DNA of 64,000 bases from a virus (IMGVR_UViG_3300050821_001527:96001-160000), one strand, 5' to 3'. Counted from the stretch's first letter, positions 5,819 to 60,466 are shown. Made by a program: numbers and translations. Notes: generated by a model from the sequence alone, not told the origin.

Positions 5819-6914
5819 CGAAGGTCTTGATTATGGATTCAGCGAGCTTCTCCTTGGAGAATTGGGTTTGTAACTTGAGTCCGGGAGAATTGAGTCTGCT
5901 CTGACCGACTCGCGCAATCACCTTTTCACATGCCGCGATAAAGGCTTCCTCGTCCCAAGTGAAGATGGAGCCTTGGTTGAATGGCTGTCCCTTTTGGAAG
6001 AACATTCCGTCGTATGCTTCTTCCTTGCCGTTAGTAGGAACGATAACAGAGTTTGACTCGTTTGACCAATCCGAATATCCGGGGCCGTCGAGGATTACCG
6101 CGTGTTTTCCGAGGGCGACAGATTGGAACTCTGGTAGCCCCCAGCCTTCGCCACCAGACATGCCAAGCACAATATCTCCCGAGTTGAGGAACTCGTTATA
6201 CGAGGCGTTTTCCTGCATGGAAGGAAGGAAAGTAACGTTGAACGGCTTTGGCTTTCCTTCAAGAATCAGATTGGCCGCGATATGGTTATTCTGTTGAGCG
6301 TTGATGAAGGGGTTGTAGATGGCACATTGCAGGGCGTAGCGGGAGTTGTTCCCATATTTCTTAATCCAAGCCTTAATCATCTTCAAGTGCTGCTTGCGCT
6401 TTTCAAACTTTCCGCAAATATTGAACACGATTCTCCCGTCGGGGAAGTATGTCTTGTTCGTGTTTTGGAAGTTATAAGAGTCGAACGCCAGCGGCATGTG
6501 CGACGTTTCAACCCCGAATTTCTTGAAGACTTCGCAGGTAAACTTGCTTGAGAAGAACGTCTTGTTATTTCTGGCGATGTTAAGCTCGACTGGCGTGGGA
6601 GCATCAAGTTCATAGAATGATAACAGGGTTTGCTTCTCCGAGAACGACTCCATTGAGCCATTAAGATGCCACAGCTTGAAAATGGGATTCGAGCGTTCGT
6701 GCATGTTGTAGGCTGCGTGAATACAGTCCTCCAACCATTTGAGAAATTCAGGGTCTTGCTTTTGAGAGGCGAGGTCGTATCCGCCACCCACCGGGAAAAG
6801 CCTGACATCATAATCTGCGCCCGTCTTTATCAGGTCATAGATAGTCCTGAGAATCAATACGGATGTTTGTCCGAACGATACTCCATTAACGGGTAGATTG
6901 AATGTCAGAATCAT
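5805..6914 (-). CDS. Glycosyltransferase family 4 (GT-B)
   Basis: GKFEKRK, SGGEGWGLPEFQSVALGK (Ex7E-like) motif. Confidence 0.8.
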   Translation of the reverse strand: MILTFNLPVNGVSFGQTSVLILRTIYDLIKTGADYDVRLFPVGGGYDLASQKQDPEFLKWLEDCIHAAYNMHERSNPIFKLWHLNGSMESFSEKQTLLSFYELDAPTPVELNIARNNKTFFSSKFTCEVFKKFGVETSHMPLAFDSYNFQNTNKTYFPDGRIVFNICGKFEKRKQHLKMIKAWIKKYGNNSRYALQCAIYNPFINAQQNNHIAANLILEGKPKPFNVTFLPSMQENASYNEFLNSGDIVLGMSGGEGWGLPEFQSVALGKHAVILDGPGYSDWSNESNSVIVPTNGKEEAYDGMFFQKGQPFNQGSIFTWDEEAFIAACEKVIARVGQSRLNSPGLKLQTQFSKEKLAESIIKTFDANA

Positions 6915-7116
6915 TTTTTCTTTGTTCGAGCGTTGATTTTATCTCGGCCCATAGGGTTTCCCATCGCTCCTTGAAGATTCCGCCTTTCGCATATCCATCT
7001 TCTCGGATTTTATCCACTCTCCAATAGCATGGAGAGCAGTAAAGGGCGTCCGTTGGTATCCTACACGGACATAGTAGGCAAACTTTCATAAGCGAAACGG
7101 GCGGCGGGATTGCCAC
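6886..7116 (-). CDS. Small Cys-rich hypothetical protein
   Basis: CxxC..CxxC, operon position. Confidence 0.4.
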   Translation of the reverse strand: MAIPPPVSLMKVCLLCPCRIPTDALYCSPCYWRVDKIREDGYAKGGIFKERWETLWAEIKSTLEQRKNDSDIQSTR

Positions 7117-7133
7117 CGCCCGTCACGAAGACA

Positions 7134-7451
7134 TTAAATGTCCAGTTCGGTCGGTTCGAGGACGGGCGCGGCAGCAGGCTTCGCGGCTGGTGCCTGAGCC
7201 TTCGGAGCCGGGGATGCGGCGGCAGGAGCGGGCTGACCGTTCCCTTCGCGGTTGGACAGGTAAATCTTGAAGTCCGGGTGCTTTGGTTCCTTCTTACCCT
7301 TGTTCTTGAATGCAACAAGGTTTACCTTCTGGTTGATTCCCCACTGATTGAGGTCAATGGAGAGAGAGATGAACTGTGCGCCGGATGCGGCCTTCTTGAC
7401 CCATACTGCGCCCAAGTCCTTCTCGAACTGCTTTTCATTTGGATTTTCCAT
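7134..7451 (-). CDS. DUF736-like (PC4/SSB-like) protein
   Basis: LGAVW.K..SG..FISL, K.P.HPDF.IY, Pro/Ala-rich tail with acidic end. Confidence 0.6.
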   Translation of the reverse strand: MENPNEKQFEKDLGAVWVKKAASGAQFISLSIDLNQWGINQKVNLVAFKNKGKKEPKHPDFKIYLSNREGNGQPAPAAASPAPKAQAPAAKPAAAPVLEPTELDI

Positions 7452-7467
7452 GTTATTTAGTTTCGGT

Positions 7468-8070
7468 TTATACTATGTCAGCGAAGTCCGTGCTACGGAG
7501 CTTCGTGCGAAGAAAATTCATTCCTCGCTCATGTAGATTGATTACCGTCTGAGACGAAATATTCATTTTTTCTGCAATTTGTTTCCACTCCTTCTTTTCC
7601 GGGGACAAATGGCGCATTTCAATGATTTGCGGGATTCTCTTATCCTTCATTTGGGACAGTAGATTTTTCAGGAAGTCGTAAGTCTCTTTGTTTTCCTCTT
7701 TCTCCCTTGAGCCGTGCATGGAGTCTGCATTATCCAGCATTTCCCTCATTTCGTCAGTGTCAACACTTATCAGACACTTCCTCTTGGTTATCGAATTCAG
7801 ACACAGAAATCTCGCGTAGTTGCAGATGTGGGTGGACAATTTCGCGCCCCTTTTAGGGTCGTATGTTTTAATGCAGTTAAATATAATGATATTTTTCTCA
7901 TTAAATATGTCCGTCGGACTGATACCTGAGTTGATTAACGCCGGGGTAAATTTGTGGCACATCTTGTAAAAGACGTTTTCATACCTTCGGCATAGTTCGA
8001 GGAAACTGTCATTACAACCGTCCTTCTTGACTCTACGAATCAAGGTTTTATCGGGGATATTGGTCATCAA
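7468..8070 (-). CDS. Sigma-70 family RNA polymerase sigma factor
   Basis: Region 2 YDPKRGAKLSTH; region 4 HTH WKQIAEKMNISSQTV. Confidence 0.85.
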   Translation of the reverse strand: MMTNIPDKTLIRRVKKDGCNDSFLELCRRYENVFYKMCHKFTPALINSGISPTDIFNEKNIIIFNCIKTYDPKRGAKLSTHICNYARFLCLNSITKRKCLISVDTDEMREMLDNADSMHGSREKEENKETYDFLKNLLSQMKDKRIPQIIEMRHLSPEKKEWKQIAEKMNISSQTVINLHERGMNFLRTKLRSTDFADIV

Positions 8071-8519
8071 TAAGGATAGACCATTTTTTTGAAATAAAAT
8101 TCACGAACGCACGGGACTGCCCCTGTATGATGTTTCTTAGCAAATATAGGCAGACATCCCCTTACCGGAGTAATGGTTACACTACTCTAGTAAGGAGATT
8201 CTGTATGCCGTTTCTTGAGGGCTTGAAATATTTAATGTGGTAAGCCACTCCACGCAGCATTGAAACTTTGTTAGTCAGCAGCTACCGGAAGTCCGGGGAT
8301 GCGAAAGGTCTTAAAACGCATTTACGCTGCCGTCCCCGTGCTTACGCACAACGGCGGGTGAGCCTCTACGATTTCTCGTAGCCTTTTTATTTTCTCGTCA
8401 AATCGAGAGCCTAGCCCTTGTTGCGTCTGTTTGGCTTCAGCGCGTCCGCGATGGAGCAACGTGGGAAAACCTTACTGTTTGTTCTCAGCAGGCTGAAAAT
8501 GGATACAACCATTTGTTCT

Positions 8520-9586: not shown

Positions 9587-12166
9587 ATGGATAATAAATT
9601 TGGTTACGAAGAATCTCTGGAAGCCTCGATTTCTTACTTTAACGGCGATGAACTGGCCGCGAAAGTCTTTCTCGACAAATACGCCCTGAAAAACGAGCAG
9701 TCCGAAATCTTGGAGAAGTCGCCGTATATGATGCACAGCAGACTGGCGAAGGAGTTTGCCCGCATCGAGAAAAACAAATTCAAGGTCGCCCTCACCGAAG
9801 CTGAAATATTTTCGTTCTTCGACAGGTTCAAATACATCGTCCCTCAAGGGTCGCCGATGTTCGGCATCGGTAACAATTTCCAAATCATTTCGCTGTCCAA
9901 CTGCTACGTTGTGGAAACGCCGAGTGACAGCATCGGCGGCATTCTAAAGACCGACCAGCAGCTTGCTCAGATTTCCAAGCGCAGGGGCGGCAATGGAGCA
10001 TCACTCAATTCACTTCGCCCTTCCGGTGCGCCGACCAAAAACTCCTCCCGTTCTTCAACCGGAGTTCCGTCTTTCGCAGAAAGATACTCCAACACGATTC
10101 GTGAGATTGGACAGTCTGGTCGTCGTGGAGCCTTGATGCTTACCTTGTCAGTTCATCACCCGGACTGCTGCAAGATTGACGACGCCCAATGGGAATCTCC
10201 TAAGAAAATCGTTCTCAAGGGTGACGCCGAAAAACAGGAGCGCGACATTGTTACCGACTCCCGATTCTACGACGAGAACAACGTTGACTTTTGCTCAATG
10301 AAGTTAAACAGAAAGAAAGTCACGGGAGCAAATATCTCCATCCAGCTTTCGGACGAGTTTCTCAACGCCGTTAAGAAGGGCACAAAATACGAGCAGCGTT
10401 TCCCTCTCGACTATAAGGAGAAGGGTGTCAAGCCGATGGTATCGAAGATGGTTGACGCCCGCAAGGTGTGGCAAAAAATCATTCATTGCGCGTGGCAGTC
10501 TGCCGAACCCGGATTGCTTTTTTGGGATTTGATTAGACAGTTCAACGCGGTTGACTGCTATGCAAAACATGGGTTCGCCACGGAGTCCACAAACCCTTGT
10601 TCCGAATTGCCGCTCTGCATACTCGACTCTTGCAGGCTGATGGTGCAGAACCTATACTCTTACGTTCTCCATCCGTTTTCCAAAGACGCAAGGTTTGACT
10701 ACGACTTGTTCTACGCCCACGCGAAAATCTCGCAGAGGCTCATGGATGATTTGATTGACCTTGAACTCGAAAAGATTTATCAGATTATCGCCAAAATCAA
10801 GTCAGACCCGGAACCCGAAGAAATCAAGAGAGAAGAACTGACGCTGTGGGAAAAGATAGCTGAGAAATGTTCCTCTGGTCGAAGGACTGGGCTTGGCGTT
10901 ACTGGTGAAGGCGATGCCATTGCCGCCGTAGGTCTGAAATACGGTTCCGACGAAAGCATTAAGTTCGTGGAAAAAATCCACAAGACTCAGAAACTTGCCT
11001 CATTCGATTCGTCCTGTGAAATGGCCCAAGAGATTGGGGCTTTCCCTGTTTGGGATTGGGAATTGGAAAAGGATTCGGCGTTTCTTCTTCAAATCAAAAA
11101 GGAGGATGAAGCTCTTTATGAGCGCATCAAGAAATACGGACGCCGTAATATTGCGAACCTGACGATTGCCCCTGCGGGAACAGTTAGCATTATGACGCAG
11201 ACTACTTCCGGCGTAGAGCCGTTGTTCGACATTAAGCCATACGAACGCCGCAAGAAAATCAACCCCAACGACAGTTCCTCTAGGGTGGACTTCACCGATA
11301 CTAACGGAGACAAGTGGCAGAAGTTCGAGGTTAAACATCCCAAGCTCCAAATATGGATGGATGTAACCGGGGAGAAGGACTGGAAGAAGTCCCCTTGGTA
11401 TGGTTCCTGCGCTCCTGATATTGACTGGAAGCAGCGCGTCAAACTGCAAGCCGCCGCGCAGAGGCACATTGACCACGCCATTAGCAGCACCATCAATCTC
11501 CCGGCAGAAGTCACCGAAGAAAAGGTAGCCGAGATTTATCTTGAGGCTTGGGAGAGTGGGTGCAAGGGGATTACGGTTTATCGTGAAGGATGCCGTAGTG
11601 GAGTCCTTATCCGCAAGGACAAGGAAGAAGGCCCGAAGATTACCAAGACCGTAGCTCCTAAAAGGCCAAAGAGTCTGGAAGGAAAGCTTCACTTCTTCAA
11701 TTTCCGTGGCGACAAGTATTTCGTTGCCGTGGGGTTATTGGGTGGAACACCGTATGAAATCTTCACCGGATTCAACAGCGAGAAAAAGCGCGACTTTATC
11801 CCGAAAGACTGTAATACTGGGCAAATCAAAAAGCACCGCAGAGGGCATTATGTATTCGAGTCCGCAACGGATGGCGAGACGTATGCTCTTAACAATGGTC
11901 ACTCCGACGACAACGCCGACGCTTTGACCCGCATGATTTCTTGCAGTCTTCGCCACGGCAGCGACATTGCCTTCGTCATTCACCAGCTTGAAAAAACTTC
12001 CGGCGACTTGTCCTCGTTCTCGAAGTGCTTGGCTAGAACGCTAAAGTGCTACGTCGAAAACGGTAAAGAGGTTTCCGGCGAAGAATGTTCGGAATGCGGA
12101 AGCAAGCTCCACAGGGAGAACGGCTGCATTATTTGCAAGAACTGCGGAAACTCAAAATGTGGATAA
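9587..12166 (+). CDS. nrdJ: Class II (adenosylcobalamin-dependent) ribonucleotide reductase with C-terminal TSCPD and Zn-ribbon
   Basis: SNCYV, RRGA, TNPCSE catalytic motif, IAPAGT, TSGVEP, CKGITVYR, C-terminal CxxC pairs. Confidence 0.95.
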   Translation: MDNKFGYEESLEASISYFNGDELAAKVFLDKYALKNEQSEILEKSPYMMHSRLAKEFARIEKNKFKVALTEAEIFSFFDRFKYIVPQGSPMFGIGNNFQIISLSNCYVVETPSDSIGGILKTDQQLAQISKRRGGNGASLNSLRPSGAPTKNSSRSSTGVPSFAERYSNTIREIGQSGRRGALMLTLSVHHPDCCKIDDAQWESPKKIVLKGDAEKQERDIVTDSRFYDENNVDFCSMKLNRKKVTGANISIQLSDEFLNAVKKGTKYEQRFPLDYKEKGVKPMVSKMVDARKVWQKIIHCAWQSAEPGLLFWDLIRQFNAVDCYAKHGFATESTNPCSELPLCILDSCRLMVQNLYSYVLHPFSKDARFDYDLFYAHAKISQRLMDDLIDLELEKIYQIIAKIKSDPEPEEIKREELTLWEKIAEKCSSGRRTGLGVTGEGDAIAAVGLKYGSDESIKFVEKIHKTQKLASFDSSCEMAQEIGAFPVWDWELEKDSAFLLQIKKEDEALYERIKKYGRRNIANLTIAPAGTVSIMTQTTSGVEPLFDIKPYERRKKINPNDSSSRVDFTDTNGDKWQKFEVKHPKLQIWMDVTGEKDWKKSPWYGSCAPDIDWKQRVKLQAAAQRHIDHAISSTINLPAEVTEEKVAEIYLEAWESGCKGITVYREGCRSGVLIRKDKEEGPKITKTVAPKRPKSLEGKLHFFNFRGDKYFVAVGLLGGTPYEIFTGFNSEKKRDFIPKDCNTGQIKKHRRGHYVFESATDGETYALNNGHSDDNADALTRMISCSLRHGSDIAFVIHQLEKTSGDLSSFSKCLARTLKCYVENGKEVSGEECSECGSKLHRENGCIICKNCGNSKCG

Positions 12167-12617: not shown

Positions 12618-13001
12618 GGGGACGTAATGGTTTCGACATTTATTGTTGAAAGCCGAACGCAAGCACGGGATGATTGTTGGCCCGTTAAAAATTCAATCAA
12701 AACATAAATGCTAACAAAGTAGCACTTAGAAATGCAGTTGACTGCGGAGTAGTTCGCGGTTTTGCAGCATTTGCGATGGCTTAATGCCGTCCCGTCCACC
12801 ACTCCGATTCTCGCTACGAGTGAATGGGCGTAAAAACAGCGGGAAAAAACCCTAGAGCCGGTTCGAGGGTAACGGAACCGGATATTGATGGTGAGTTTTG
12901 CTGCCAGTGTAGCCAATCAAGAATATCAAAGGCTGATAAGCTTGTAGTGTTTTTCTTGCAAACGTAAGTGGACGCGGGTTCAACTCCCGCCGTCTCCACC
13001 A
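12618..13001 (+). ncRNA. ssrA: tmRNA; tag ANKVALRNAVDCGVVRGFAAFAMA* (12710-12784)
   Basis: GGGGACG..TGGTTTCGAC 5' end, T-arm GCGGG-TTCAACT-CCCGC, G3:U70, ACCA end, 384 nt, Ala-Asn-initiated tag. Confidence 0.95.
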
Positions 13002-13006
13002 TTTTC

Positions 13007-13122
13007 GGGGCTACTGGTCAGACTTGATGAACGAAAGCTAATACCGACAAACCGGATTGCTAGAGAATAGCATTTACGCAGGCCGTCATTGAGGCACGGT
13101 TTAACTCCGTGTAGCTCCACCA
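13007..13122 (+). ncRNA. Mini-tmRNA-like RNA (116 nt) with short frame ANTDKPDC*
   Basis: GGGGCTA/TAGCTCC acceptor with G3:U70 and ACCA, stemless D loop CTGGTCAGAC, P2-like helix, T-arm CACGG-TTTAACT-CCGTG. Confidence 0.75.
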
Positions 13123-21997: not shown

Positions 21998-22071
21998 GGG
22001 GTTGTGGTTCAATAGCAGAACGGCGGATTCGCAATTCGCAGACGACGGCGCGATACCGTCCTACTCCACCA
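21998..22071 (+). tRNA. tRNA-Ala(CGC)
   Basis: G3:U70, loop TTCGCAA, T-loop CGCGATA. Confidence 0.85.
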
Positions 22072-22081
22072 ATTTCAATTT

Positions 22082-22158
22082 CCGGCCTGCCGTTTGGGTG
22101 CGAGTCCCAAGTTTAAGCAAGTGAAAGCGGCTAACTAGCATAGGTCAATGGTCGGCCA
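22082..22158 (+). ncRNA. Circularly permuted tRNA-like (Y-RNA-like) RNA 1
   Basis: CCGGCC/GGTCGG closing stem; T-arm TTGGG-TGCGAGT-CCCAA precedes D-arm-like TAGCATAGGTCAATG. Confidence 0.5.
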
Positions 22159-22162
22159 ATTT

Positions 22163-22236
22163 GGGGTCATAGTTCAATAGTAGAACGCGAGGCTGGCAGT
22201 CTTGTAATCAGAGTGCGATTCTCTGTGGCTCCACCA
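22163..22236 (+). tRNA. tRNA-Ala(GGC)
   Basis: G3:U70, loop CTGGCAG, T-loop TGCGATT. Confidence 0.85.
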
Positions 22237-22343
22237 ATTTCTGAAACGTTCGGGATGGTGTAACGCGCTTTGGCGGTTCATTCGCCATTGCGAACTTCCG
22301 TTGTATCGAGAGAAGCGAAACGGCGTTTCGGGCAAACTTTAAT

Positions 22344-22437
22344 GGCCGGTGTCCCCATCGGGAGTCTGTAAAACTTCTATGCTTACAAATGTGATGGGAA
22401 GTTGCACCGAAGGAGCGTTACCTTCACCGCGCCACCA
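22344..22437 (+). tRNA. D-armless tRNA-Tyr(GTA)-like RNA
   Basis: Loop CTGTAAA, 10-nt D replacement, 31-nt variable region, T-loop AGCGTTA, ACCA. Confidence 0.6.
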
Positions 22438-22449
22438 ATTTCTTCTTGA

Positions 22450-22648
22450 CCGAAAACCAGACCTGTAAACCGAATGTCCCGGTAGGTTGCACGTATTGGT
22501 GAGTAAGAGGACACAGGAAGGAAAATTTTCATCCACTGGCGCACTGGCGCTAGTGCGAGATTCGGGGTGGGTGGCAATGAAGACCGAAGCCCCGACAACG
22601 CGAAACCTGCAAAAAGTGGTTTAACTACCGAGAGAGAGGACTCGGCGT
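22450..22648 (+). ncRNA. Unknown pseudoknotted structured RNA
   Basis: Crossing pairings CCGAA/TTCGG and GTAGGTT/AACCTGC, nested CCTG/CAGG and TGTCC/GGACA. Confidence 0.4.
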
Positions 22649-22651
22649 AAT

Positions 22652-22727
22652 GGTGGTATTGATGTAATAGTTAGCATCTTCCCCTGTGAAGGGAACTGTG
22701 CGGGTGCGAATCCCGTATATCACCCCA
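22652..22727 (+). tRNA. tRNA-His(GTG)
   Basis: G-1:C73, loop CTGTGAA, T-loop TGCGAAT. Confidence 0.9.
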
Positions 22728-22753
22728 ATTTCATTCACGTAGAACATGAAAGT

Positions 22754-22761
22754 GTGTAATA
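22754..22761 (+). promoter_or_regulatory. Phage GTGTAATA promoter motif
   Basis: 6 nt upstream of ATG 22768. Confidence 0.65.
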
Positions 22762-22767
22762 AAAGTT

Positions 22768-23214
22768 ATGAGCAGCGTTGACTCACTCGAAAACCACGAC
22801 CAGTTCCATTTGGAACAACTGCACAAGCTTTCCTGTCAAAGCGGCTCGAAGGACATTCTCGTTATTGACGATAGCACGGGCGACTTGATGGACATTCAGA
22901 AGATTATGAACCTCAAGTATGCAGACCAATTTCACGTAAGGTATTGTCTGGACGCTGAAAAGGGGATTGAGATTCTCAAGGAAAACAATTTCTTTTTGGT
23001 TTTGCTCGATTTCAAGATGCCGAAGTTGAACGGTCTTGAAGTAATCGAGACGGTAAACAAGATGAAGCAGAACGTTCCGTTCGTAGTTTTGACGGGATAC
23101 GGCGACCCATCCATGCGCGAAGCATTGACAAGATTGGGCGTAATGCTCCTGTTGGACAAGCCAATCACGGAGAAGAAGCTGGACATGCTCCTGACTTTGA
23201 CTCACGCGAAATAA
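22768..23214 (+). CDS. Stand-alone response-regulator receiver (CheY-like)
   Basis: ILVIDD, LLD.KMP..NG, VVLTG, DKP. Confidence 0.9.
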   Translation: MSSVDSLENHDQFHLEQLHKLSCQSGSKDILVIDDSTGDLMDIQKIMNLKYADQFHVRYCLDAEKGIEILKENNFFLVLLDFKMPKLNGLEVIETVNKMKQNVPFVVLTGYGDPSMREALTRLGVMLLLDKPITEKKLDMLLTLTHAK

Positions 23215-23219
23215 TTTCT

Positions 23220-23296
23220 GGCCGCATAGCTCAAATAGATAGAGCAGCACCCCGCGAAGGTGAAGGTTGTAGGTGCGACTCCTACTGTGGCTACCA
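23220..23296 (+). tRNA. tRNA-Arg(GCG)-like with 6-nt anticodon loop
   Basis: CACC-CGCGAA-GGTG lacks U33; rest of cloverleaf intact. Confidence 0.6.
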
Positions 23297-23493
23297 TTTT
23301 CCCGCATAGTCCGTTGAGCAGCCCCGTAGCAACGAGGAAACAAAAGCTTGATGGTTCAGCCAAGCCGTGCGCCAGCGCGGTATTTGCGTGGTGCGAGTCC
23401 ACGGGGAACGATTTATCCCCCTGCTGGTATAGTCCAGCGAAGTAGGTGAGGCTAACCTATGAGTGGTTCGTAACGCACAAGAGGGAATTTTAT

Positions 23494-23576
23494 GGGCATG
23501 TAACCGAAGCAGTCCTCGAAACTGATTAACCGTAATTATGTTGCAAATGTGGGTGAGATTCCCTCCATGCCTACCA
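23494..23576 (+). tRNA. D-armless tRNA-Arg(TCG)-like RNA
   Basis: GGGCATG/CATGCCT-ACCA, CAGT-CCTCGAA-ACTG, long variable region. Confidence 0.55.
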
Positions 23577-23662
23577 ATTTCTCTGTTTGACAATCGAGCC
23601 TAAATAGTCTGCACAGACGGCGCGGGTTCGTAGATGTTGTGCGAAACGGAGGATTCATTTCT

Positions 23663-23755
23663 GTTCCCGTAGCTGAAAGACAGCCGGTGCCCTTATAAAG
23701 CACTTAATCGCTAGATTGGCGTAAGACTCAGGAGCGTTACCTGACGGGAATACCA
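23663..23755 (+). tRNA. tRNA with TAT (Ile) anticodon and long variable arm
   Basis: Loop CTTATAA, D arm GCTG-AAAGA-CAGC, V hairpin TAATC/GATTG; 7/5 or 8/4 fold possible. Confidence 0.7.
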
Positions 23756-23762
23756 AATTTTA

Positions 23763-23846
23763 CGCATCGTGACATAAGCGCGAATAGCACAGCCACACGT
23801 CTCAAAAATGTGAGTTTTAAGGGTGCGAGTCCCTTCGATGCGACCA
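23763..23846 (+). tRNA. tRNA-Leu(CAA), short V, expanded D region
   Basis: Loop CTCAAAA, T-loop TGCGAGT. Confidence 0.7.
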
Positions 23847-23852
23847 ATTTAT

Positions 23853-23928
23853 GTGCCTATGATGGAATAGCATACATACCAGCCTCAGAAGTTGGGTTTT
23901 GCAGGTGCGAGTCCTGCTAGGCATACCA
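23853..23928 (+). tRNA. tRNA-Leu(CAG), short variable loop
   Basis: Loop CTCAGAA, V=GTTTT. Confidence 0.8.
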
Positions 23929-23933
23929 TTTCC

Positions 23934-24017
23934 CGCTCCGTGACCTTGTAGCGAACAGCACAGCTTGCCGTCTTAGACACGGTGGTTTTGCAGGTGCGAG
24001 TCCTGTCGGAGCGACCA
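23934..24017 (+). tRNA. tRNA-Leu(TAG), short V, expanded D region
   Basis: Loop CTTAGAC, T-loop TGCGAGT. Confidence 0.75.
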
Positions 24018-24022
24018 ATTTA

Positions 24023-24110
24023 GCCAGTGTGGTGAAAGAGCAGACACACCATCTTGAGAAGGTGGCGCGAATAAAGTAGCGTGTAGGTGCGAATCCTATC
24101 ACTGGCACCA
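24023..24110 (+). tRNA. tRNA-Leu(GAG)
   Basis: Loop TTGAGAA, long V arm. Confidence 0.9.
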
Positions 24111-24192
24111 ATTTCCTAATGGAAGGTCTGTTAGGACACAGTAGCAGTCGAGATTCTAACCGCCTCGCCGGGGCGTTGCTACACGGCATTAC

Positions 24193-24267
24193 GGTCTATT
24201 GTTGAATGAGTTATCATAGTTCCCTGTCACGGAGCAATAACGGGTGCGAGTCCCGTATAGACCGCCA
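24193..24267 (+). tRNA. tRNA-Asp(GTC)
   Basis: Loop CTGTCAC, G73. Confidence 0.9.
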
Positions 24268-24345
24268 TTTTACGGCTGAGTTAGCGATTCCTGCGCGTGG
24301 GAACGAGACGATTCACTTCGTTTAACTGATGAAGCCGCCAATTTT

Positions 24346-24422
24346 GGGATAGAAGGTAAAGTAGTGGAACCGTTCCGTTGTCTGCGGAAAAAAAGTGGGT
24401 GCGACTCCCATCTATCTCGCCA
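24346..24422 (+). tRNA. tRNA-Asp(GTC), atypical loop TTGTCTG
   Basis: Cloverleaf, G73, U37. Confidence 0.75.
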
Positions 24423-24517
24423 TTTTGTCAGAGAAGTCCGTCAACCATGCGGTTGACCCGTATGGAGAACGTCGAGTTCAGACATATTGTATAGCTGGCC
24501 ACTTAGGACTTCCGTTC

Positions 24518-24595
24518 AGTCAGTGAGGGAGTAAGATAACCCCGACGCCTGCAAAGCGTTTCGTATAGTCGGAGCATTACCGACACTGACTTCCA
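24518..24595 (+). tRNA. tRNA-Cys(GCA)
   Basis: Loop CTGCAAA, U73, T-loop AGCATTA. Confidence 0.85.
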
Positions 24596-24599
24596 TTTC

Positions 24600-24676
24600 G
24601 TCCTAATGGTGTAAGGGAATTACAACACGGTAGTCTTCGGACTACAGATGCAAGCCAACTATTGCAAGGGACTCCA
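24600..24676 (+). pseudogene. Degenerate tRNA-like gene with anticodon arm capped by C-TTCG-G
   Basis: D arm and CCA present; GTAGTC-TTCG-GACTAC; 8-nt T-loop. Confidence 0.45.
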
Positions 24677-24680
24677 ATTT

Positions 24681-24757
24681 CGGTTTGTCGCCTAGTGTTC
24701 ATGGCACTCGCCTTGGGAGCGAGCATAACGCGGGTTAAAATCCCGCCAAGCCGACCA
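24681..24757 (+). tRNA. tRNA-Pro(TGG)
   Basis: CGG start, loop CTTGGGA, T-loop TTAAAAT. Confidence 0.85.
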
Positions 24758-24765
24758 TTTTTTAG

Positions 24766-24843
24766 ACGGGGTATAATGTCAGCAGCTAGACGGCTCCCTT
24801 CGGAGGGGAGAGGCCGTGGGTGCGAATCCCACTACCCCGACCA
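24766..24843 (+). tRNA. tRNA-Pro(CGG)
   Basis: Loop TTCGGAG, T-loop TGCGAAT. Confidence 0.9.
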
Positions 24844-24847
24844 TTTA

Positions 24848-24919
24848 TGCAGGAAGAATGAGATTCAAGCGGGCCTCATAAGCCTACCCCCGTGGACGCG
24901 ACTTCCACTCCTGCTTCCA
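24848..24919 (+). tRNA. tRNA(CAT)-like, reduced D arm
   Basis: Loop CTCATAA, T-loop CGCGACT. Confidence 0.55.
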
Positions 24920-24963
24920 TTTTTTATCGAACAGAAACCGTTCTCCGATATAATAGATATTTA

Positions 24964-25041
24964 CGCGGGGTGGACAAGTAGTAAGTCGTTGGCCTCATAA
25001 GCCAAATATCGTCAGGTGCGATTCCTGACCTCACGCAACCA
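24964..25041 (+). tRNA. Initiator-type tRNA-fMet(CAT)
   Basis: CGCGGGG start, C1:A72 mismatch, loop CTCATAA. Confidence 0.8.
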
Positions 25042-25044
25042 TTT

Positions 25045-25461
25045 ATGGAAGACGCCGTTCTCAACACGCAAAAAGCCTTGGACACCGCATTGGCATCATT
25101 GAATGCGCTGGCTAAAAAAGATTACGTTCCTCCGACAACCCCCGACATTGACCCCGAAACTGAAATGCCGATTAAAGGGAATGGCACGGAAGAATATGAT
25201 ACCGAAGACGCTTACGAGGATGGGGAAGAAGCAGTCCGTCTGTGCATTGAAATTGCCCAGTTGAGGCTAGAGGTCGAGGGCCAGCCCCGCCGTGCTATCG
25301 TCAACACGGAAAAGGCGGCAGAAATCCGAGCAAGGGGAGCGATTGACAAGGTAAGACCAGAGCGTCACCTGAGCGTTTCTCCCGAACTTATCAAGAGTAT
25401 CGAACATTCCGTAGCTAAACCGGAAATGATGTTCTTCGTTTTGGAAGAACCCAAGGAATAA
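25045..25461 (+). CDS. Acidic hypothetical protein
   Basis: 138-aa ORF between tRNAs. Confidence 0.65.
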   Translation: MEDAVLNTQKALDTALASLNALAKKDYVPPTTPDIDPETEMPIKGNGTEEYDTEDAYEDGEEAVRLCIEIAQLRLEVEGQPRRAIVNTEKAAEIRARGAIDKVRPERHLSVSPELIKSIEHSVAKPEMMFFVLEEPKE

Positions 25462-25467
25462 GATTTC

Positions 25468-25542
25468 GCGTTGTTGGCAGAGAAGTGATGCGCTTGCCTT
25501 CCAAGCAAGTTTAAGTGGGAGCATTACCCACACAACGCTCCA
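25468..25542 (+). tRNA. tRNA-Gly(TCC)
   Basis: Loop CTTCCAA, U73. Confidence 0.9.
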
Positions 25543-25545
25543 ATT

Positions 25546-25970
25546 TGTCCGAAGCTATAATCCCCGTGCGTAATAGCACTAAGCGCAAGTAGGCCGAAAG
25601 GCAGAACCGTGATGGTGGATGAACTGCTCGTCTAAAATATCGGCTACATAATTTAGTCAGGTCGTCGGTCTGTCGTTGCGGTGAGCAATCACCAAGCCTA
25701 TGGGACGGCGGCTCGAAAAGGTATCCGTAAGCTGGCAGGAATCGCTTGTGCAAGATTCCACTACCGAAGGAGAATGCGGCGAAAGCCAAGTTCGTTCGCA
25801 CTTGTAGTAGGTCAGTCATCTCAGCCGAGGCAGGCATTTTCAAAATCGTTAGGGTTAGTCCAACCACGGTAAAACGTGAGAGGGGTCATAAAAGACTGCA
25901 AGCGTCACCCTGCCTAAAACCCCCTGTTGGTGAGTGGATAGTTGAAAACGAGGTCAGCGATGACCTGACT
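25546..25970 (+). ncRNA. Candidate large (~425 nt) structured ncRNA
   Basis: No credible ORF or tRNA; GNRA-capped hairpins at 25593, 25680, 25778, 25952. Confidence 0.55.
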
Positions 25971-25973
25971 TTT

Positions 25974-26049
25974 AGCCGCATGGTGAAATTACAATCACAC
26001 AATCCTGCGAAGATTGAAGTCCCGGTGAGATTCCGGGTGCTGGCTACCA
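25974..26049 (+). tRNA. tRNA-Arg(GCG)
   Basis: Loop CTGCGAA, T-loop TGAGATT. Confidence 0.85.
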
Positions 26050-26053
26050 TTTT

Positions 26054-26128
26054 GCGACATAGGTGTTTATAGATACACGCGAGTCTTCCAAACTTGAGTA
26101 GTGAGTGCGATACTCACACGTCGCTCCA
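26054..26128 (+). tRNA. tRNA-Gly(TCC)
   Basis: Loop CTTCCAA, U73. Confidence 0.85.
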
Positions 26129-26192
26129 ATTTATGCACCCAAAACTTGCAAGTTACTCGACCCATGAATCGAGTGTGGTGCAACCAATTTAT

Positions 26193-26267
26193 TCCCTAGT
26201 AGTGTCAAAGTAGCACGTCTCCCTGTTAAGGAGTTTAGTGTTGGTGCGAGTCCAACCTTCGGAACCA
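26193..26267 (+). tRNA. tRNA-Asn(GTT), mismatched acceptor
   Basis: Loop CTGTTAA. Confidence 0.7.
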
Positions 26268-26279
26268 TTTAGTCAGCAT

Positions 26280-26364
26280 TCCAGAGTAGGAGAATTGGTA
26301 AACCCAGCGGACTGTTAATCCGCCGCGAAAGCAACTGCTCGTTCAAGTCGAGCCTCTGGAGCCA
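26280..26364 (+). tRNA. tRNA-Asn(GTT) with long variable arm
   Basis: Loop CTGTTAA, V hairpin GC-GAAA-GC, canonical GG/TTC elbow, G73. Confidence 0.85.
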
Positions 26365-26474
26365 TTTTCAAGACATTTCCCCTGACGAAAGCTCTACGAT
26401 GTAGAACATCGCACCAGCAAGTCATGGTTACATGACGTGTCCGTGGACGCACGGAAGCGGGGAGTTTGAATTTT

Positions 26475-26552
26475 GCATCCGTCAACCAAACGCGTAAATG
26501 ACTCGGGCTTTTAACCCAAAGGATGTGGTCACGCAAGCCACCGGATGCACCA
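26475..26552 (+). tRNA. tRNA-Lys(TTT)
   Basis: Loop CTTTTAA, T-loop CACGCAA. Confidence 0.75.
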
Positions 26553-26670
26553 ATTTCTACCTGAACACAAGTGCTATGTCATCGAGCCAAGTCACGGTTA
26601 TTGTGTATCGTGAAAATTCCGTTGACAATGTAGCAATGCGCGAGAAAGACGCGCACGGGTTCCTTTTCAT

Positions 26671-26744
26671 AGGGATATAGTATAAAAGTAGAACGGCACC
26701 CTGACACGGTGAAGGCGAAGGAGCGTTACCTTCTATCCCTACCA
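26671..26744 (+). tRNA. tRNA-Val(GAC)
   Basis: Loop CTGACAC, T-loop AGCGTTA. Confidence 0.9.
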
Positions 26745-26750
26745 TTTTAT

Positions 26751-26831
26751 GAGAATCGAGACGCGGGTGCATATCCCGCCTGCCTGTTTAAATACTTGCA
26801 GTAGCTTAGTAGCAGAGCGCGATTCGTCTCC
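26751..26831 (+). ncRNA. Circularly permuted tRNA-like (Y-RNA-like) RNA 2
   Basis: GAATCG/CGATTC closing stem; T-arm, loop-closed CTGC/GCAG acceptor, then D arm TAGCTTAGTAGCAGAGC. Confidence 0.75.
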
Positions 26832-26838
26832 CTTTTAC

Positions 26839-26917
26839 GGAACGGTAACTCAAATGGGTCAAGAGTGTTCGCCCGATTAGCGAAAGGTTGTGGACTCCCA
26901 AGCCACTCGTTCTACCA
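26839..26917 (+). tRNA. tRNA-Ile(GAT), loop CCGATTA
   Basis: Cloverleaf with irregular T-loop. Confidence 0.65.
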
Positions 26918-26922
26918 ATCAC

Positions 26923-26995
26923 GGTTCCATACGATAAAGCAGTCCCCATGCCCGATTAGCGTGGTGTCTTGGTGCGAGTCCAAGTGGAACTACCA
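26923..26995 (+). tRNA. tRNA-Ile(GAT), loop CCGATTA
   Basis: GGTTCCA/TGGAACT, T-loop TGCGAGT. Confidence 0.7.
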
Positions 26996-27000
26996 TTTAC

Positions 27001-27076
27001 TGCCCTTTAGCTCATTCAGCAGAGCGGCGTCTTGATAAGGCGAAGGTGGTCGGGGCAGAGCCGACAAGGGCAACCA
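27001..27076 (+). tRNA. tRNA-Ile(GAT)
   Basis: Loop TTGATAA, T-loop GGCAGAG. Confidence 0.9.
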
Positions 27077-27079
27077 ATT

Positions 27080-27244
27080 ATGAAACCATACGGATTGACA
27101 AAGAAAATCCTACACAACCATCCCGATGTTCACCCGCCGAAGGGCTGGGTCAACTGGTGGGAAAGCGAAACGAGGGACTGTCTCCGCAAGAAAGCAGAAC
27201 GCCAACAGGCGAAAAAACAGATTTTACAAGATTTGGCTTCGTAG
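27080..27244 (+). CDS. Small basic hypothetical protein
   Basis: MKPYG start; stop TAG is nt 8-10 of tRNA-Lys. Confidence 0.6.
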   Translation: MKPYGLTKKILHNHPDVHPPKGWVNWWESETRDCLRKKAERQQAKKQILQDLAS

Positions 27245-27311
27245 CTCAAGCGTCAAGAGCAGCCGCCTTTTAAGCGGAAGCGTCCGGGCAGTCAATCCGG
27301 TGGGGCCACCA
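27235..27311 (+). tRNA. tRNA-Lys(TTT)
   Basis: Loop CTTTTAA, T-loop CAGTCAA. Confidence 0.85.
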
Positions 27312-27457
27312 ATTTATAAACACCTAGACCGTGTGCGATACCGGCATGGTTTCGTGAGTCGGCTATGTCGAAGCCGAAGAAGATTCGCGGGACTTGGAGT
27401 GTGAAAGAAGCACGGGTGTATTTTTTTGAATAAAAAGCGGATTCGTTTATCATAGGT

Positions 27458-27835
27458 ATGCAAAACGTTTATCTGAACCGCGACGAACTCCTGCCGATTG
27501 TCAAGGAGAACAAGCAAAAGCACGACAACATTTTTTCCACAGCCGTTTCCGGCTATTGGGTCAAGGCCGAAGAAATCCTGAACGGCAAACTGAACAAGGT
27601 CAAAGCCAAGCAGCAAGTTGACAATTACCTTGGACTCAGCTATCCCGAAGACCATTCTGATGAATATGACCGAGTAATCAGGATGCTGGAACTTTCGTCT
27701 GATGACAAGATTCAGCTTACGTCTTCCGAGTTTGATTGCTATGTTCGCAATCAATGGAACTGGCGCAAGGCGTTCTTGACGGTCAATTCAACATACATTT
27801 CGGACTGGAACCCCATTTCCGGGGCTTCATTCTAA
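27458..27835 (+). CDS. Conserved-looking phage hypothetical protein
   Basis: P.DHSDEYDRVIRMLE motif. Confidence 0.7.
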   Translation: MQNVYLNRDELLPIVKENKQKHDNIFSTAVSGYWVKAEEILNGKLNKVKAKQQVDNYLGLSYPEDHSDEYDRVIRMLELSSDDKIQLTSSEFDCYVRNQWNWRKAFLTVNSTYISDWNPISGASF

Positions 27836-27915
27836 CAGTCTTGGTCGAGGCGTGGGTTCGATTCCGCCGTGTGGCTCCATGCCGCACGTAGCTTAGTGGC
27901 AGAGCGCGACCTGTT
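27834..27915 (+). ncRNA. Circularly permuted tRNA-like (Y-RNA-like) RNA 3, Thr/Gly-type acceptor
   Basis: 3' half (GGTCG, TTCGATT T-loop, CGTGTGGC-TCCA), 1 nt, then 5' half (GCCGCACG, D arm, CGACC); ends pair AACAG/CTGTT. Confidence 0.8.
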
Positions 27916-27916
27916 C

Positions 27917-27991
27917 GGGGCTATGGTGCAGAAGTAAGCACGTTAGGTTCTCAACCTGAAAACGTCGGAGCGTTACCGACTAGCCCTACCA
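27917..27991 (+). tRNA. tRNA-Glu(CTC)
   Basis: Loop TTCTCAA, T-loop AGCGTTA. Confidence 0.85.
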
Positions 27992-27997
27992 ATTTAC

Positions 27998-28073
27998 GGG
28001 GGAGTGGTGCATAAGTAAGCACGGTTGGCTTTCACCCAGCAGAAGCTCGGAGCGTTACCGGCCTCCCCTACCA
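27998..28073 (+). tRNA. tRNA-Glu(TTC)
   Basis: Loop CTTTCAC. Confidence 0.85.
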
Positions 28074-29415: not shown

Positions 29416-29563
29416 GGGTATATGTTGTAATGGCAGCAAAAAGGGCGGGAGAGTCGAGGGAATAGCAGACCAACTATAGCTCTGTAAGCCTAGTAGCTCG
29501 ATTTGAAAACCTGAATACTCGTCTATACGAGTGGCCTCGGTTCGATTCCGGGTATATCCACCA
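29416..29563 (+). tRNA. tRNA with ~52-nt hairpin insert in the anticodon loop, long V arm, G3:U70
   Basis: GGGTATA/TATATCC-ACCA, D arm with GG, ACTCGT/ACGAGT V arm, TTCGATT T-loop; identity unresolved. Confidence 0.65.
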
Positions 29564-29567
29564 ATCT

Positions 29568-29646
29568 CCGTCAGTAGCTCAAATGTGGTAAGAGCGTTGG
29601 TTTGAAACACCAAAGGTTGTCGTTCCCCAAACGACTTGACGGGCCA
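29568..29646 (+). tRNA. tRNA-Phe(GAA)
   Basis: Loop TTGAAAC, T-loop TCCCCAA. Confidence 0.75.
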
Positions 29647-59296: not shown

Positions 59297-60466
59297 ATGA
59301 AAATCTACGCCGAAAACACTCGCGTCCCAATCAAGTCTTGGTGTGAAAACCCGGAAGCCGGGGCTATCAAGCAGGCCGAGAACATGGCCAACCTGCCATT
59401 CACTTTCAGACACGTCGCCCTCATGCCCGACACCCATCAAGGCTTTGGTATGCCTATCGGTGGAGTTCTGGCTACCGATAACGTCATCATTCCGAACGCT
59501 GTCGGAGTTGACATTGGGTGCGGTATGTGTTCCATCGAATCCAACATCCAAACTTGGGACAGGGAACTGTTGACGGAAGCCATCAAGGAAATCCGCTACA
59601 ACGTTCCTGTCGGATTCAGCCGCCATCTTACCGCGAAGCCTGTGGACAAGCTGCCCGCCAGCACGTCCCCGAACGCCTACTATGAGAAGTTCCTTGAGCC
59701 GTCCCTGTTCCAACTCGGAACCTTGGGCGGCGGGAATCACTTCATCGAATTACAGAAGAACCCGAACGGAAATCTGTGCGTGATGATTCACTCTGGTAGC
59801 CGCAACATCGGGAAGCAGGTTGCCGACTATTACAACAAGCTCGCCCTCGCTCTGAACCAGCGTTATTTCAGTCAGGTCACGAAGGAAACCGACTTGGCGT
59901 TCCTGCCGCTTGACTCTGCCGAGGGTCAGGCTTACTTGGCGGAAATGACTTACTGTGTCGCGTTTGCCTTGGCGAACCGCATGGAAATGATGAACGCTTG
60001 CCAGCAAGCCATCTACAAGGTTTTCAAGCCTTTGCAACAGGTCGAGTTCACGAACTTCATCAACATTCCGCACAATTATGCGAAGGTTGAAAAGCACTTC
60101 GGCAAGGAAGTCGTCGTCCACCGCAAGGGCGCGACGAATGCCAGCGAGGGCGTCATTGGGCTAATCCCCGGCTCGCAGGGCACCAAGAGCTACGTGGTGC
60201 GCGGCAAGGGTAATCGTGAGAGCTTCGAGAGTTGCTCCCACGGCGCAGGCCGCAAGATGGGCCGCATGGTCGCCAAACGCACTCTGAACATCGAAGACGA
60301 GCAACGCAAGCTGGACGAACTTGGAGTCATTCATGCCGTCCGCGCCAACTCTGACTTGGACGAGGCTCCGGGTTCCTATAAGGACATTGACGTGGTTATG
60401 AGCGAGCAAACCGACCTGATTGACGTTATCGAAGAACGCACTCCTTTGGGAGTCGTGAAGGGGTAA
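59297..60466 (+). CDS. rtcB: RtcB RNA 3'-phosphate/5'-OH ligase
   Basis: MPDTH.G.G.PIG, GVDIGCG, GTLGGGNHFIE, HSGSR, HN, HRKGA, SHGAGR, DEAP.SYK. Confidence 0.97.
   Translation: MKIYAENTRVPIKSWCENPEAGAIKQAENMANLPFTFRHVALMPDTHQGFGMPIGGVLATDNVIIPNAVGVDIGCGMCSIESNIQTWDRELLTEAIKEIRYNVPVGFSRHLTAKPVDKLPASTSPNAYYEKFLEPSLFQLGTLGGGNHFIELQKNPNGNLCVMIHSGSRNIGKQVADYYNKLALALNQRYFSQVTKETDLAFLPLDSAEGQAYLAEMTYCVAFALANRMEMMNACQQAIYKVFKPLQQVEFTNFINIPHNYAKVEKHFGKEVVVHRKGATNASEGVIGLIPGSQGTKSYVVRGKGNRESFESCSHGAGRKMGRMVAKRTLNIEDEQRKLDELGVIHAVRANSDLDEAPGSYKDIDVVMSEQTDLIDVIEERTPLGVVKG

What the first reader, a model, noticed from the sequence alone, without database searches (positions are those of the whole stretch)
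22082..27915. Three circularly permuted tRNA mimics (Y-RNA/YrlA-like)
Seen at 22082-22158, 26751-26831 and 27834-27915: order is anticodon-stem 3' strand, T-arm, loop-closed acceptor stem, D-arm, anticodon-stem 5' strand, so the free ends sit where the anticodon should be. Copies 2 and 3 share the D arm TAGCTTAGTRGCAGAGCGCGA and an NTCGAGRC 5' motif. Copy 3 keeps a TCCA joined by 1 nt to its 5' G. Bacterial YrlA Y RNAs have this topology and occur with Rsr and RtcB; RtcB is here (59297) but no Rsr/TROVE gene is in the window. Alternatives: anticodon-less decoys for anticodon nucleases, or permuted pre-tRNAs ligated by RtcB.
Basis: partly seen in the sequence, partly recalled or inferred. Interest (0 to 1): 0.85.

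Follow-up and report, generated by a model that had tools for sequence, protein, structure and literature searches.

The report
Two minimal Y-RNA-type tRNA mimics
Two of the three flagged stretches in this soil jumbo phage's tRNA gene cluster are real genes for back-to-front tRNA look-alikes related to bacterial Y RNA (YrlA), but they lack both the usual protein-binding stem and the partner protein Ro60; the third stretch is not supported.

Summary
The window lies in a 203-kb IMG/VR phage record whose array of about 50 tRNA and tRNA-like genes is all on the + strand.

- **Copies 2 and 3 are real.** Copy 2 (26751-26830) and copy 3 (27834-27915) fold as circularly permuted cloverleaves: closing stem, 4-nt AGRC, T arm, loop-closed acceptor stem, UA, D arm, closing stem. 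A model built from copy 2 alone finds copy 3 (46.6 bits).
- **They belong to a wider family.** The same model finds full-length permuted elements in unrelated phage contigs. Covariation is strong: 95.8% of cells paired, and 15 of 20 pairs changed on both sides.
- **The family is YrlA-like.** One member lies 230 nt after a Ro60/TROVE gene. Several members give full-length but sub-threshold Rfam YrlA hits.
- **Copy 3 is conserved.** A colinear relative carries an ortholog at the same site before tRNA-Glu, with compensatory changes. Copy 2 is absent there.
- **They differ from YrlA.** Neighbouring tRNAs leave no room for a Ro-binding stem, and the phage has no TROVE gene.
- **Copy 1 (22082-22158) is not supported.** It has only a closing stem and a T-arm hairpin.
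- **Reading.** These are handle-less, Ro60-independent Y-RNA-type tRNA mimics, not pre-tRNAs. A decoy role is inferred, not shown.

This scan has noted similar phage Y-like RNAs on other DNA.

The parts
26751..26830 (+). Copy 2: permuted tRNA-like module. Closing helix GAGAATCG (26751-58) pairs with CGATTC-G-TC (26820-28). Then AGAC (26759-62), T arm GCGGG/TGCATAT/CCCGC (26763-79), and the loop-closed acceptor CTGCCTG-TTTAAATA-CTTGCAG (26780-26801, 5 of 7 pairs, no CCA). Then TA, D arm GCTT/AGTAGCA/GAGC (26804-18) and G26819.
   Evidence: Cloverleaf minimum-free-energy fold. Source of model R1. 67.3 bits on family model R2, of which it is a training row. Bounded by the tRNA-Val CCA at 26744 and by a tRNA-like gene starting at 26839.
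27834..27915 (+). Copy 3: permuted tRNA-like module. Outer AACA (27834-37) pairs with TGTT (27912-15), with a GTCTT bulge. Closing stem GGTCG (27843-47) pairs with CGACC (27907-11). Then AGGC, T arm GTGGG/TTCGATT/CCGCC (27852-68), acceptor GTGTGGC (27869-75), loop TCCAT, GCCGCAC (27881-87). Then G, TA, D arm GCTT/AGTGGCA/GAGC (27891-27905) and G27906.
   Evidence: 46.6 bits on the copy-2 model; YrlA model positions 30-81, 15.9 bits. Syntenic ortholog in L048. Ends 5 nt before tRNA-Glu at 27917.
22082..22158 (+). Copy 1: a 91-nt spacer (22072-22162) between two tRNAs. It has a 6-bp closing stem CCGGCC/GGTCGG, a T-arm-like hairpin at 22094-22110, and a tRNA-style 3' end CCAATTT. It is not a demonstrable permuted cloverleaf and not a member of the copy 2/3 family.
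27917..28073 (+). tRNA-Glu(CTC) and tRNA-Glu(TTC) directly after copy 3. The same pair follows the ortholog in L048. RNase P cleavage at 27917 would set copy 3's 3' end (inferred).
26671..26744 (+). tRNA (anticodon loop CTGACAC, so Val GAC) with its CCA, directly before copy 2. In L048 this tRNA abuts the next tRNA, with no copy 2 between them.
59372..60463 (+). RtcB RNA ligase gene (389-aa frame). It is in the same genome but 31 kb from the modules.

Best explanation
Copies 2 and 3 are genes for small, stable, non-decoding RNAs of the Y-RNA (YrlA) tRNA-like-module type. Each presents a tRNA elbow (D and T loops) and an acceptor-like helix. Its two ends meet in the stem that corresponds to the anticodon stem, so there is no anticodon.

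They are transcribed with the tRNA array. The enzymes that trim their neighbours would free them: RNase P at the next tRNA's 5' end, and tRNA 3' processing at the preceding CCA and trailer. This step is inferred.

Unlike YrlA they have no Ro60-binding stem, and the phage has no Ro60, so they act without it. The most likely role is as tRNA mimics that occupy tRNA-binding proteins. Candidates are host anticodon nucleases or other tRNA-directed defence enzymes, and processing or modification enzymes. This role is inferred, not shown.

Copy 3 has a 7-8 bp acceptor helix and an encoded CCA. RNase P may open it as it opens M. smegmatis YrlA, which is also inferred. Copy 1 is not part of this.
For: **Shown: structure and family.**
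- Permuted cloverleaf folds.
- The copy-2 model finds copy 3 at E 8.6e-10.
- It also finds full-length permuted elements in unrelated viral and metagenome contigs: L020, L059, L048, L033, L015, L022 (two), L016 and L038.
- On 11 members, 95.8% of cells pair and 15 of 20 pairs change on both sides. No shuffle of 500 reaches this, and slid partners give 33-49% paired.

**Shown: link to YrlA.**
- The Rfam YrlA consensus has the same order of parts and a similar D arm.
- Members score 25.6-32.9 bits full-length on YrlA.
- In record G001 the member at 8150-8216 lies 230 nt after a TROVE ORF at 6598-7920.

**Shown: conservation and elbow.**
- The colinear relative L048 has a copy-3 ortholog 11 nt before the same tRNA-Glu pair. 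Its closing pair is A-U instead of G-C, and its acceptor sequence is wholly different but still paired.
- Copy 2 carries A18 with G55 and copy 3 carries G18 with U55. This matches the rule seen across the array's own tRNAs.

**From papers.**
[quoted passage not shown] TruB and DusA modify Salmonella YrlA (PMC4201824).
- A competitive-inhibitor role against an anticodon nuclease has been proposed for YrlA's tRNA-like domain (PMC7790460).
Against:
- Copy 2 is absent from the one relative available. It has a weak acceptor (5 of 7 pairs) and T at T-loop position 58.
- Copy 3 has a 1-nt slip in its T arm compared with the ortholog.
- The covariation alignment was fitted to the model, and part of the covariation could be inherited from ancestral tRNAs.
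- The decoy function has no direct evidence here.
Confidence: 0.6

Rival explanations
1. Non-functional leftovers. Tandem duplication and deletion within a fast-changing tRNA array left a 3' half followed by a 5' half of the same tRNA. Such a remnant folds as a permuted cloverleaf by descent alone.
For: - Copy 2 is missing in relative L048.
- Copy 2's acceptor and copy 3's T arm are imperfect.
- Tail-to-head junctions of adjacent ordinary tRNAs also score on the models: L057, L042, window 29527-29601.
- Copy 3 keeps a CCA, as a recent duplicate would.
Against: - The same architecture, with a near-invariant D arm and the AGRC motif, recurs in unrelated phages with all other helices covarying.
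- Copy 3 has a syntenic ortholog whose acceptor is rebuilt but still paired.
- Copy 2 has the coordinated 18/55 swap.
- Both break points fall exactly at the anticodon-stem ends in every member.
Confidence: 0.12
2. Cis-acting processing or stability elements. The tRNA-shaped fold serves the neighbouring genes. For example it could protect the 3' end of the upstream ORF mRNA (27458-27835) after RNase P cuts at tRNA-Glu, or act as a spacer that guides array processing.
For: - Copy 3 starts 8 nt after the ORF's stop codon and ends 5 nt before tRNA-Glu.
- No terminator-like site separates them.
- Copies 1 and 2 are followed by tRNA-style trailers, CCAATTT and CCCTTTTACG.
Against: - In L048 the ORF is absent but the element is kept.
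- Most family members elsewhere are free-standing RNAs with their own long terminal helix.
Confidence: 0.12
3. Ordinary Y RNAs that work with a Ro60 supplied by the host, or by the unsequenced ~9% of the phage.
For: - They are homologous to a Ro60-adjacent phage element.
- Two complete phage genomes, G003 and G005, also carry family members without a TROVE gene.
- Copy 3 has a small outer extension, AACA/TGTT with a 5-nt bulge.
Against: - Flanking tRNAs leave 9 nt or fewer (copy 2, 5' side) and 5 nt (copy 3, 3' side). This is too short for the two outer helices of YrlA.
- The YrlA model matches positions 30-81 only.
- Members in G003 and G005 mostly do have long handles, unlike copies 2 and 3.
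Confidence: 0.08
4. Circularly permuted pre-tRNAs. The ends would be joined by RtcB or another ligase to make an anticodon loop, and the acceptor linker removed, giving a working tRNA.
For: - The 3' half lies before the 5' half, and copy 3 encodes N-CCA and a U before G+1.
- RtcB is present in the genome.
- This scan noted a candidate permuted tRNA-Asn in another phage.
Against: - Joining the flanks gives no 7-nt anticodon loop. Copy 3 would give UGUUC plus leader with G at position 33; copy 2 would give about 29 nt.
- The flanks are not conserved between copy 3 and its ortholog.
- Copy 2 and the ortholog have no CCA.
- RNase P leaves a 3'-OH, which is not an RtcB substrate (established enzymology).
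- RtcB is absent from 2 of 3 complete phages with the family.
Confidence: 0.04

Closest known systems
YrlA (Rfam RF02553), the bacterial and phage Y RNA bound by Ro60/Rsr (Chen et al. 2014, PMC4201824)
   Same: - Same order of parts: closing stem, 4 nt, T arm, loop-closed acceptor, UA, D arm, closing stem.
- Similar D arm: GUAGCUnA..GGnAGAGC.
- Homologous to a phage element 230 nt from a TROVE gene.
- Copy 3's 7-8 bp acceptor resembles the M. smegmatis form, which RNase P cuts.
   Different: - No outer Ro-binding helices and no GNCGAAN0-1G motif.
- No Ro60 gene in the genome.
- Far below the Rfam cut-off (15.9 bits against 69).
- Embedded flush between tRNA genes rather than beside rsr.
- Copy 2 uses the phage's own A18/G55 elbow.
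Circularly permuted tRNA genes of Cyanidioschyzon merolae, some green algae and Thermofilum (named from my own knowledge and; the primary paper was not read here)
   Same: The 3' half precedes the 5' half. The acceptor ends are joined by a short linker, which in copy 3 contains CCA.
   Different: No anticodon loop can be formed from the flanks, no conserved splice motif is present, and the family is not tied to any isoacceptor.
Two-piece tmRNA from permuted ssrA genes (from my own knowledge)
   Same: A permuted tRNA-like domain whose acceptor linker is cut out, leaving a CCA end.
   Different: No tag reading frame or pseudoknots here. tmRNA lacks a true D arm, whereas these modules have a complete one.

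Membership tests
YrlA / bacterial Y RNA (RF02553) | tRNA-like domain in the order T arm, loop-closed acceptor, D arm, closed by the anticodon-stem equivalent | tested here: met
   Copies 2 and 3. Copy 1: not met.
YrlA / bacterial Y RNA (RF02553) | Ro60-binding stem formed by the RNA's 5' and 3' ends, with the conserved GNCGAAN0-1G motif | tested here: not met
   The YrlA model aligns positions 30-81 only. tRNAs abut at 26744, 26839 and 27917, leaving no room. Other family members do have long handles.
YrlA / bacterial Y RNA (RF02553) | Ro60/Rsr (TROVE) gene adjacent, or at least present in the genome | tested here: not met
   There is no TROVE match at E <= 1 in the 91%-complete record. A phage Ro60-like protein used as query also finds nothing.
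YrlA / bacterial Y RNA (RF02553) | Score at or above Rfam's gathering threshold of 69 bits | tested here: not met
   Copy 3 scores 15.9 bits; copy 2 has no hit.
   Copy 3 matches the independent copy-2 model. A member adjoins a TROVE gene.
Circularly permuted tRNA gene | Joined termini give a 7-nt anticodon loop with U33 and a defined anticodon, conserved in orthologs | tested here: not met
   Read from the sequence. The flanks differ between copy 3 and its L048 ortholog.
Circularly permuted tRNA gene | A circular or ligated intermediate and a mature tRNA exist as RNA | not testable with these tools

The most novel reading that the evidence does not exclude
Handle-less Y-RNA-type modules form a distinct class of phage RNA that works without Ro60. 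They would be anticodon-free tRNA decoys, made as part of the tRNA array, that blunt host tRNA-cleaving defences. Copy 3 would be opened by RNase P into a two-piece, CCA-ended tRNA shell.
Probability: 0.2. Interest if true: 0.8.

Novelty: new variant of a known kind. Interest (0 to 1): 0.55.

Why it matters
What the tRNA-like domain of bacterial Y RNAs does is still unknown. Here that domain stands alone, without the Ro60-binding stem and without Ro60, inside a phage tRNA array. It is conserved in a relative. This suggests the domain has a function of its own that can be tested directly. It also gives a simple system for testing the published idea that such mimics inhibit anticodon nucleases. 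In addition it marks a class of RNA genes that tRNA finders and Rfam both miss.

Tried and rejected
- **Relatives by protein.** The 125-aa ORF and the receiver-domain ORF found no relatives in IMG/VR or in the species genomes.
  - Homologs of the 125-aa ORF found by the search for homologous proteins are not syntenic with the element.
  - The receiver-domain ORF has one homolog, on a 1.6-kb contig.
- **Relatives by DNA.**
  - BLAST against GenBank phages found nothing.
  - The exact 21-nt D-arm pattern found nothing in IMG/VR. The 18-nt version succeeded.
  - A conserved tRNA-Asn 33-mer found no further relatives. Copy 1's conservation therefore could not be tested.
- **Access.** The records behind L008, L010 and L013 cannot be searched whole.
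- **Strict descriptor.** A tRNA-grade descriptor misses both copies. A relaxed one gives about 2 chance hits per genome, so descriptors alone do not decide.
- **Rejected model hits.** L057, L042, L016:676-740, window 29527-29601, 22034-22192 and 12965-13026 are junctions of two adjacent ordinary tRNAs or tRNA-like genes.
- **L010:9761-9834.** It folds as a permuted cloverleaf in a related contig, but model R2 does not find it, so it is not counted as family.
- **RtcB as obligatory partner.** Rejected.
Full report
**Setting.** The window is bases 96001-160000 of a 202,882-bp IMG/VR virus record that is about 91% complete. All tRNA genes lie on the + strand between about 20.6 and 37.8 kb of the window.
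- ARAGORN finds 17 tRNAs and a tmRNA.
- Rfam finds 26-27 tRNAs.
- An HMM built from those tRNAs finds about 25 further weak tRNA-like stretches.
- Every tRNA gene ends in CCA followed by (A)TTT.

**The observation.** Copies 2 and 3 are as described.
- On their own they fold into a four-way junction in the order closing stem, T arm, loop-closed acceptor stem, D arm.
- They share NTCGAGRC and a 21/22-identical D arm.
- Copy 3 reads GTGTGGC-TCCA-T-GCCGCAC.
- No ordinary tRNA call overlaps them.
- A relaxed descriptor (at least 19 of 21 helix pairs plus a T-loop motif) gives 7 hits in the genome, against a mean of about 2 in block shuffles. Both copies score 19/21 inside the array.
- A covariance model built from copy 2 alone scores copy 3 at 46.6 bits, E 8.6e-10.

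Copy 1 differs.
- Its proposed cloverleaf costs 8 kcal/mol more than its minimum-energy fold.
- The D stem has essentially zero probability, and the fold-energy z-score is +0.27.
- Neither model finds it, and it has no homolog in anything fetched.
- What holds is a 6-bp closing stem, a T-arm hairpin with the array's usual TGCGAGT loop, and a tRNA-style 3' end CCAATTT.

**A family.**
- Among the 90 fetched loci, 55 hits lie in ordinary tRNAs of many isotypes and 35 do not.
- The copy-2 model finds full-length permuted elements in L020, L015 (identical to L021), L022 (two), L016 (identical to L019), L059 (identical to L106), L048, L033 and L038.
- On the 11 distinct members, 95.8% of cells pair and 15 of 20 pairs change on both sides. 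No shuffle of 500 reaches this, and slid partners give 33-49% paired.
- That alignment is fitted to the model, so it leans towards the structure. The size of the effect and the fully different acceptor and closing sequences nevertheless make the structure convincing.
- Hits that span two adjacent ordinary tRNAs were identified and excluded. Chen et al. also warn about these false positives.

**Link to YrlA.**
- Rfam's YrlA consensus has the same order: closing stem, 4 nt, T arm, closed acceptor, UA, D arm GCUC...GAGC, closing stem. Outside that it has two further helices, which form the Ro60-binding stem.
- Family members with long terminal helices score 25.6-32.9 bits full-length on YrlA, below the cut-off of 69.
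- In record G001 the member at 8150-8216 lies 230 nt downstream of a 440-aa TROVE ORF at 6598-7920. This is the arrangement by which Chen et al. defined phage YrlA RNAs.
- The family is therefore of the Y-RNA type.

**What is different here.**
- Copy 2 is confined to 26745-26838, between a tRNA's CCA and the next tRNA-like gene.
- Copy 3 ends 5 nt before tRNA-Glu.
- The YrlA model matches copy 3 over positions 30-81 only, at 15.9 bits, and does not match copy 2.
- The genome has no TROVE match and no match to the phage Ro60-like protein.
- Two complete phage genomes with family members, G003 and G005, also lack it.

**Conservation.**
- L048 (12.3 kb) is colinear with window positions from about 25.7 to 42 kb.
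- It carries a copy-3 ortholog 11 nt before the same tRNA-Glu(CTC)/Glu(TTC) pair.
- In that ortholog the closing stem is GGTCA/TGACC against GGTCG/CGACC. Its T stem is perfect. Its acceptor has a wholly different sequence, still pairs, and is closed by TTTGTT without a CCA.
- Copy 2 is absent from L048: tRNA-Val abuts the next tRNA there.
- The 125-aa ORF upstream of copy 3 is also absent.

**Elbow.** Most tRNAs of the array have G at T-loop position 55 and AG instead of GG in the D loop. The few with U55 keep GG. Copy 2 (TGCATAT, AGTAGCA) follows the first type. Copy 3 and all outside members (TTCGAnT, AGTGGCA) follow the second. This coordinated difference argues that the D and T loops touch in these RNAs.

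**Mechanism.**
- Shown: the structure, the family, the Y-RNA kinship, and the absence of both the handle and Ro60.
- Inferred: the RNAs are released by the trimming of neighbouring tRNAs.
- Inferred: they act as tRNA mimics on tRNA-binding proteins. Hughes et al. proposed that YrlA's tRNA-like domain may competitively inhibit an anticodon nuclease.
- Inferred: RNase P may open copy 3. M. smegmatis YrlA, with a 7-bp acceptor, is cut by RNase P and receives CCA. Copy 3 and members L020, L059 and L016 carry CCA, and AU before G+1, in the linker.
- The pre-tRNA idea fails, because the flanks give no anticodon loop and are not conserved.
- RtcB is distant and is not a constant companion.

**Limits.** No RNA data could be obtained, only one close relative was found, and copy 1's conservation is untested.

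**Earlier notes of this scan.** They describe phage Y-like RNAs with permuted tRNA modules beside Ro60-like genes on other DNA. I used them as leads and tested them here.

**Verdict.** Two of the three copies are real. The kind is known (YrlA-type). The variant appears new: minimal, without Ro60, and embedded in the tRNA array. I found no description of it in the papers I could search.

Noticed in passing
window 25659-25966 (+): Full-length but sub-threshold match to the raiA RNA motif (RF03072): 54.9 bits against a cut-off of 101.3, E 2.7e-11. It lies inside the tRNA array, and part of it is conserved in relative L048.
   Followed up: no
window 20.6-37.8 kb (+): Every tRNA gene is followed by CCA(A)TTT. 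About 25 further weak tRNA-like stretches lie between the called tRNAs. Most T loops have G55 paired with an AG D loop.
   Followed up: partly
window 26839-26920 and 26923-26995 (+): Two tRNA-like genes that ARAGORN and Rfam miss. Their anticodon loop is CCGATTA, which has C33 instead of U33 and anticodon GAT. The first is 88% identical to a counterpart in L048.
   Followed up: no
window 27458-27835 (+): The 125-aa ORF of no known family is an insertion relative to L048. It has its own promoter-like site at 27426-27453. Its homologs sit at varying places in or near the tRNA arrays of related phages, as a mobile small gene would.
   Followed up: partly
window 27356-27414 (+): A non-coding stretch 85% identical to L048, where it lies directly upstream of the copy-3 ortholog. 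Its function is unknown.
   Followed up: no
L010:9761-9834 and about 9846-9925: In a related phage contig, directly after a tRNA, lies a stretch that folds on its own as a permuted cloverleaf (T loop TGCAAAT, AT-only middle hairpin). A possible second one follows it. The family model does not find them.
   Followed up: partly
genome G000:C1:8936-9005, minus strand (outside the window): The best descriptor hit in the genome, with 21 of 21 pairs: T arm ACGGG/TGCAACT/CCCGT and a 7-bp hairpin. It gets only a partial 14.5-bit match on R2.
   Followed up: no
L044 (8.7-11.3 kb) and G005:C1:99104-99730: Clusters of four to six family-like modules in single phage contigs, some with 30-80-nt inserts in the acceptor loop.
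   Followed up: no
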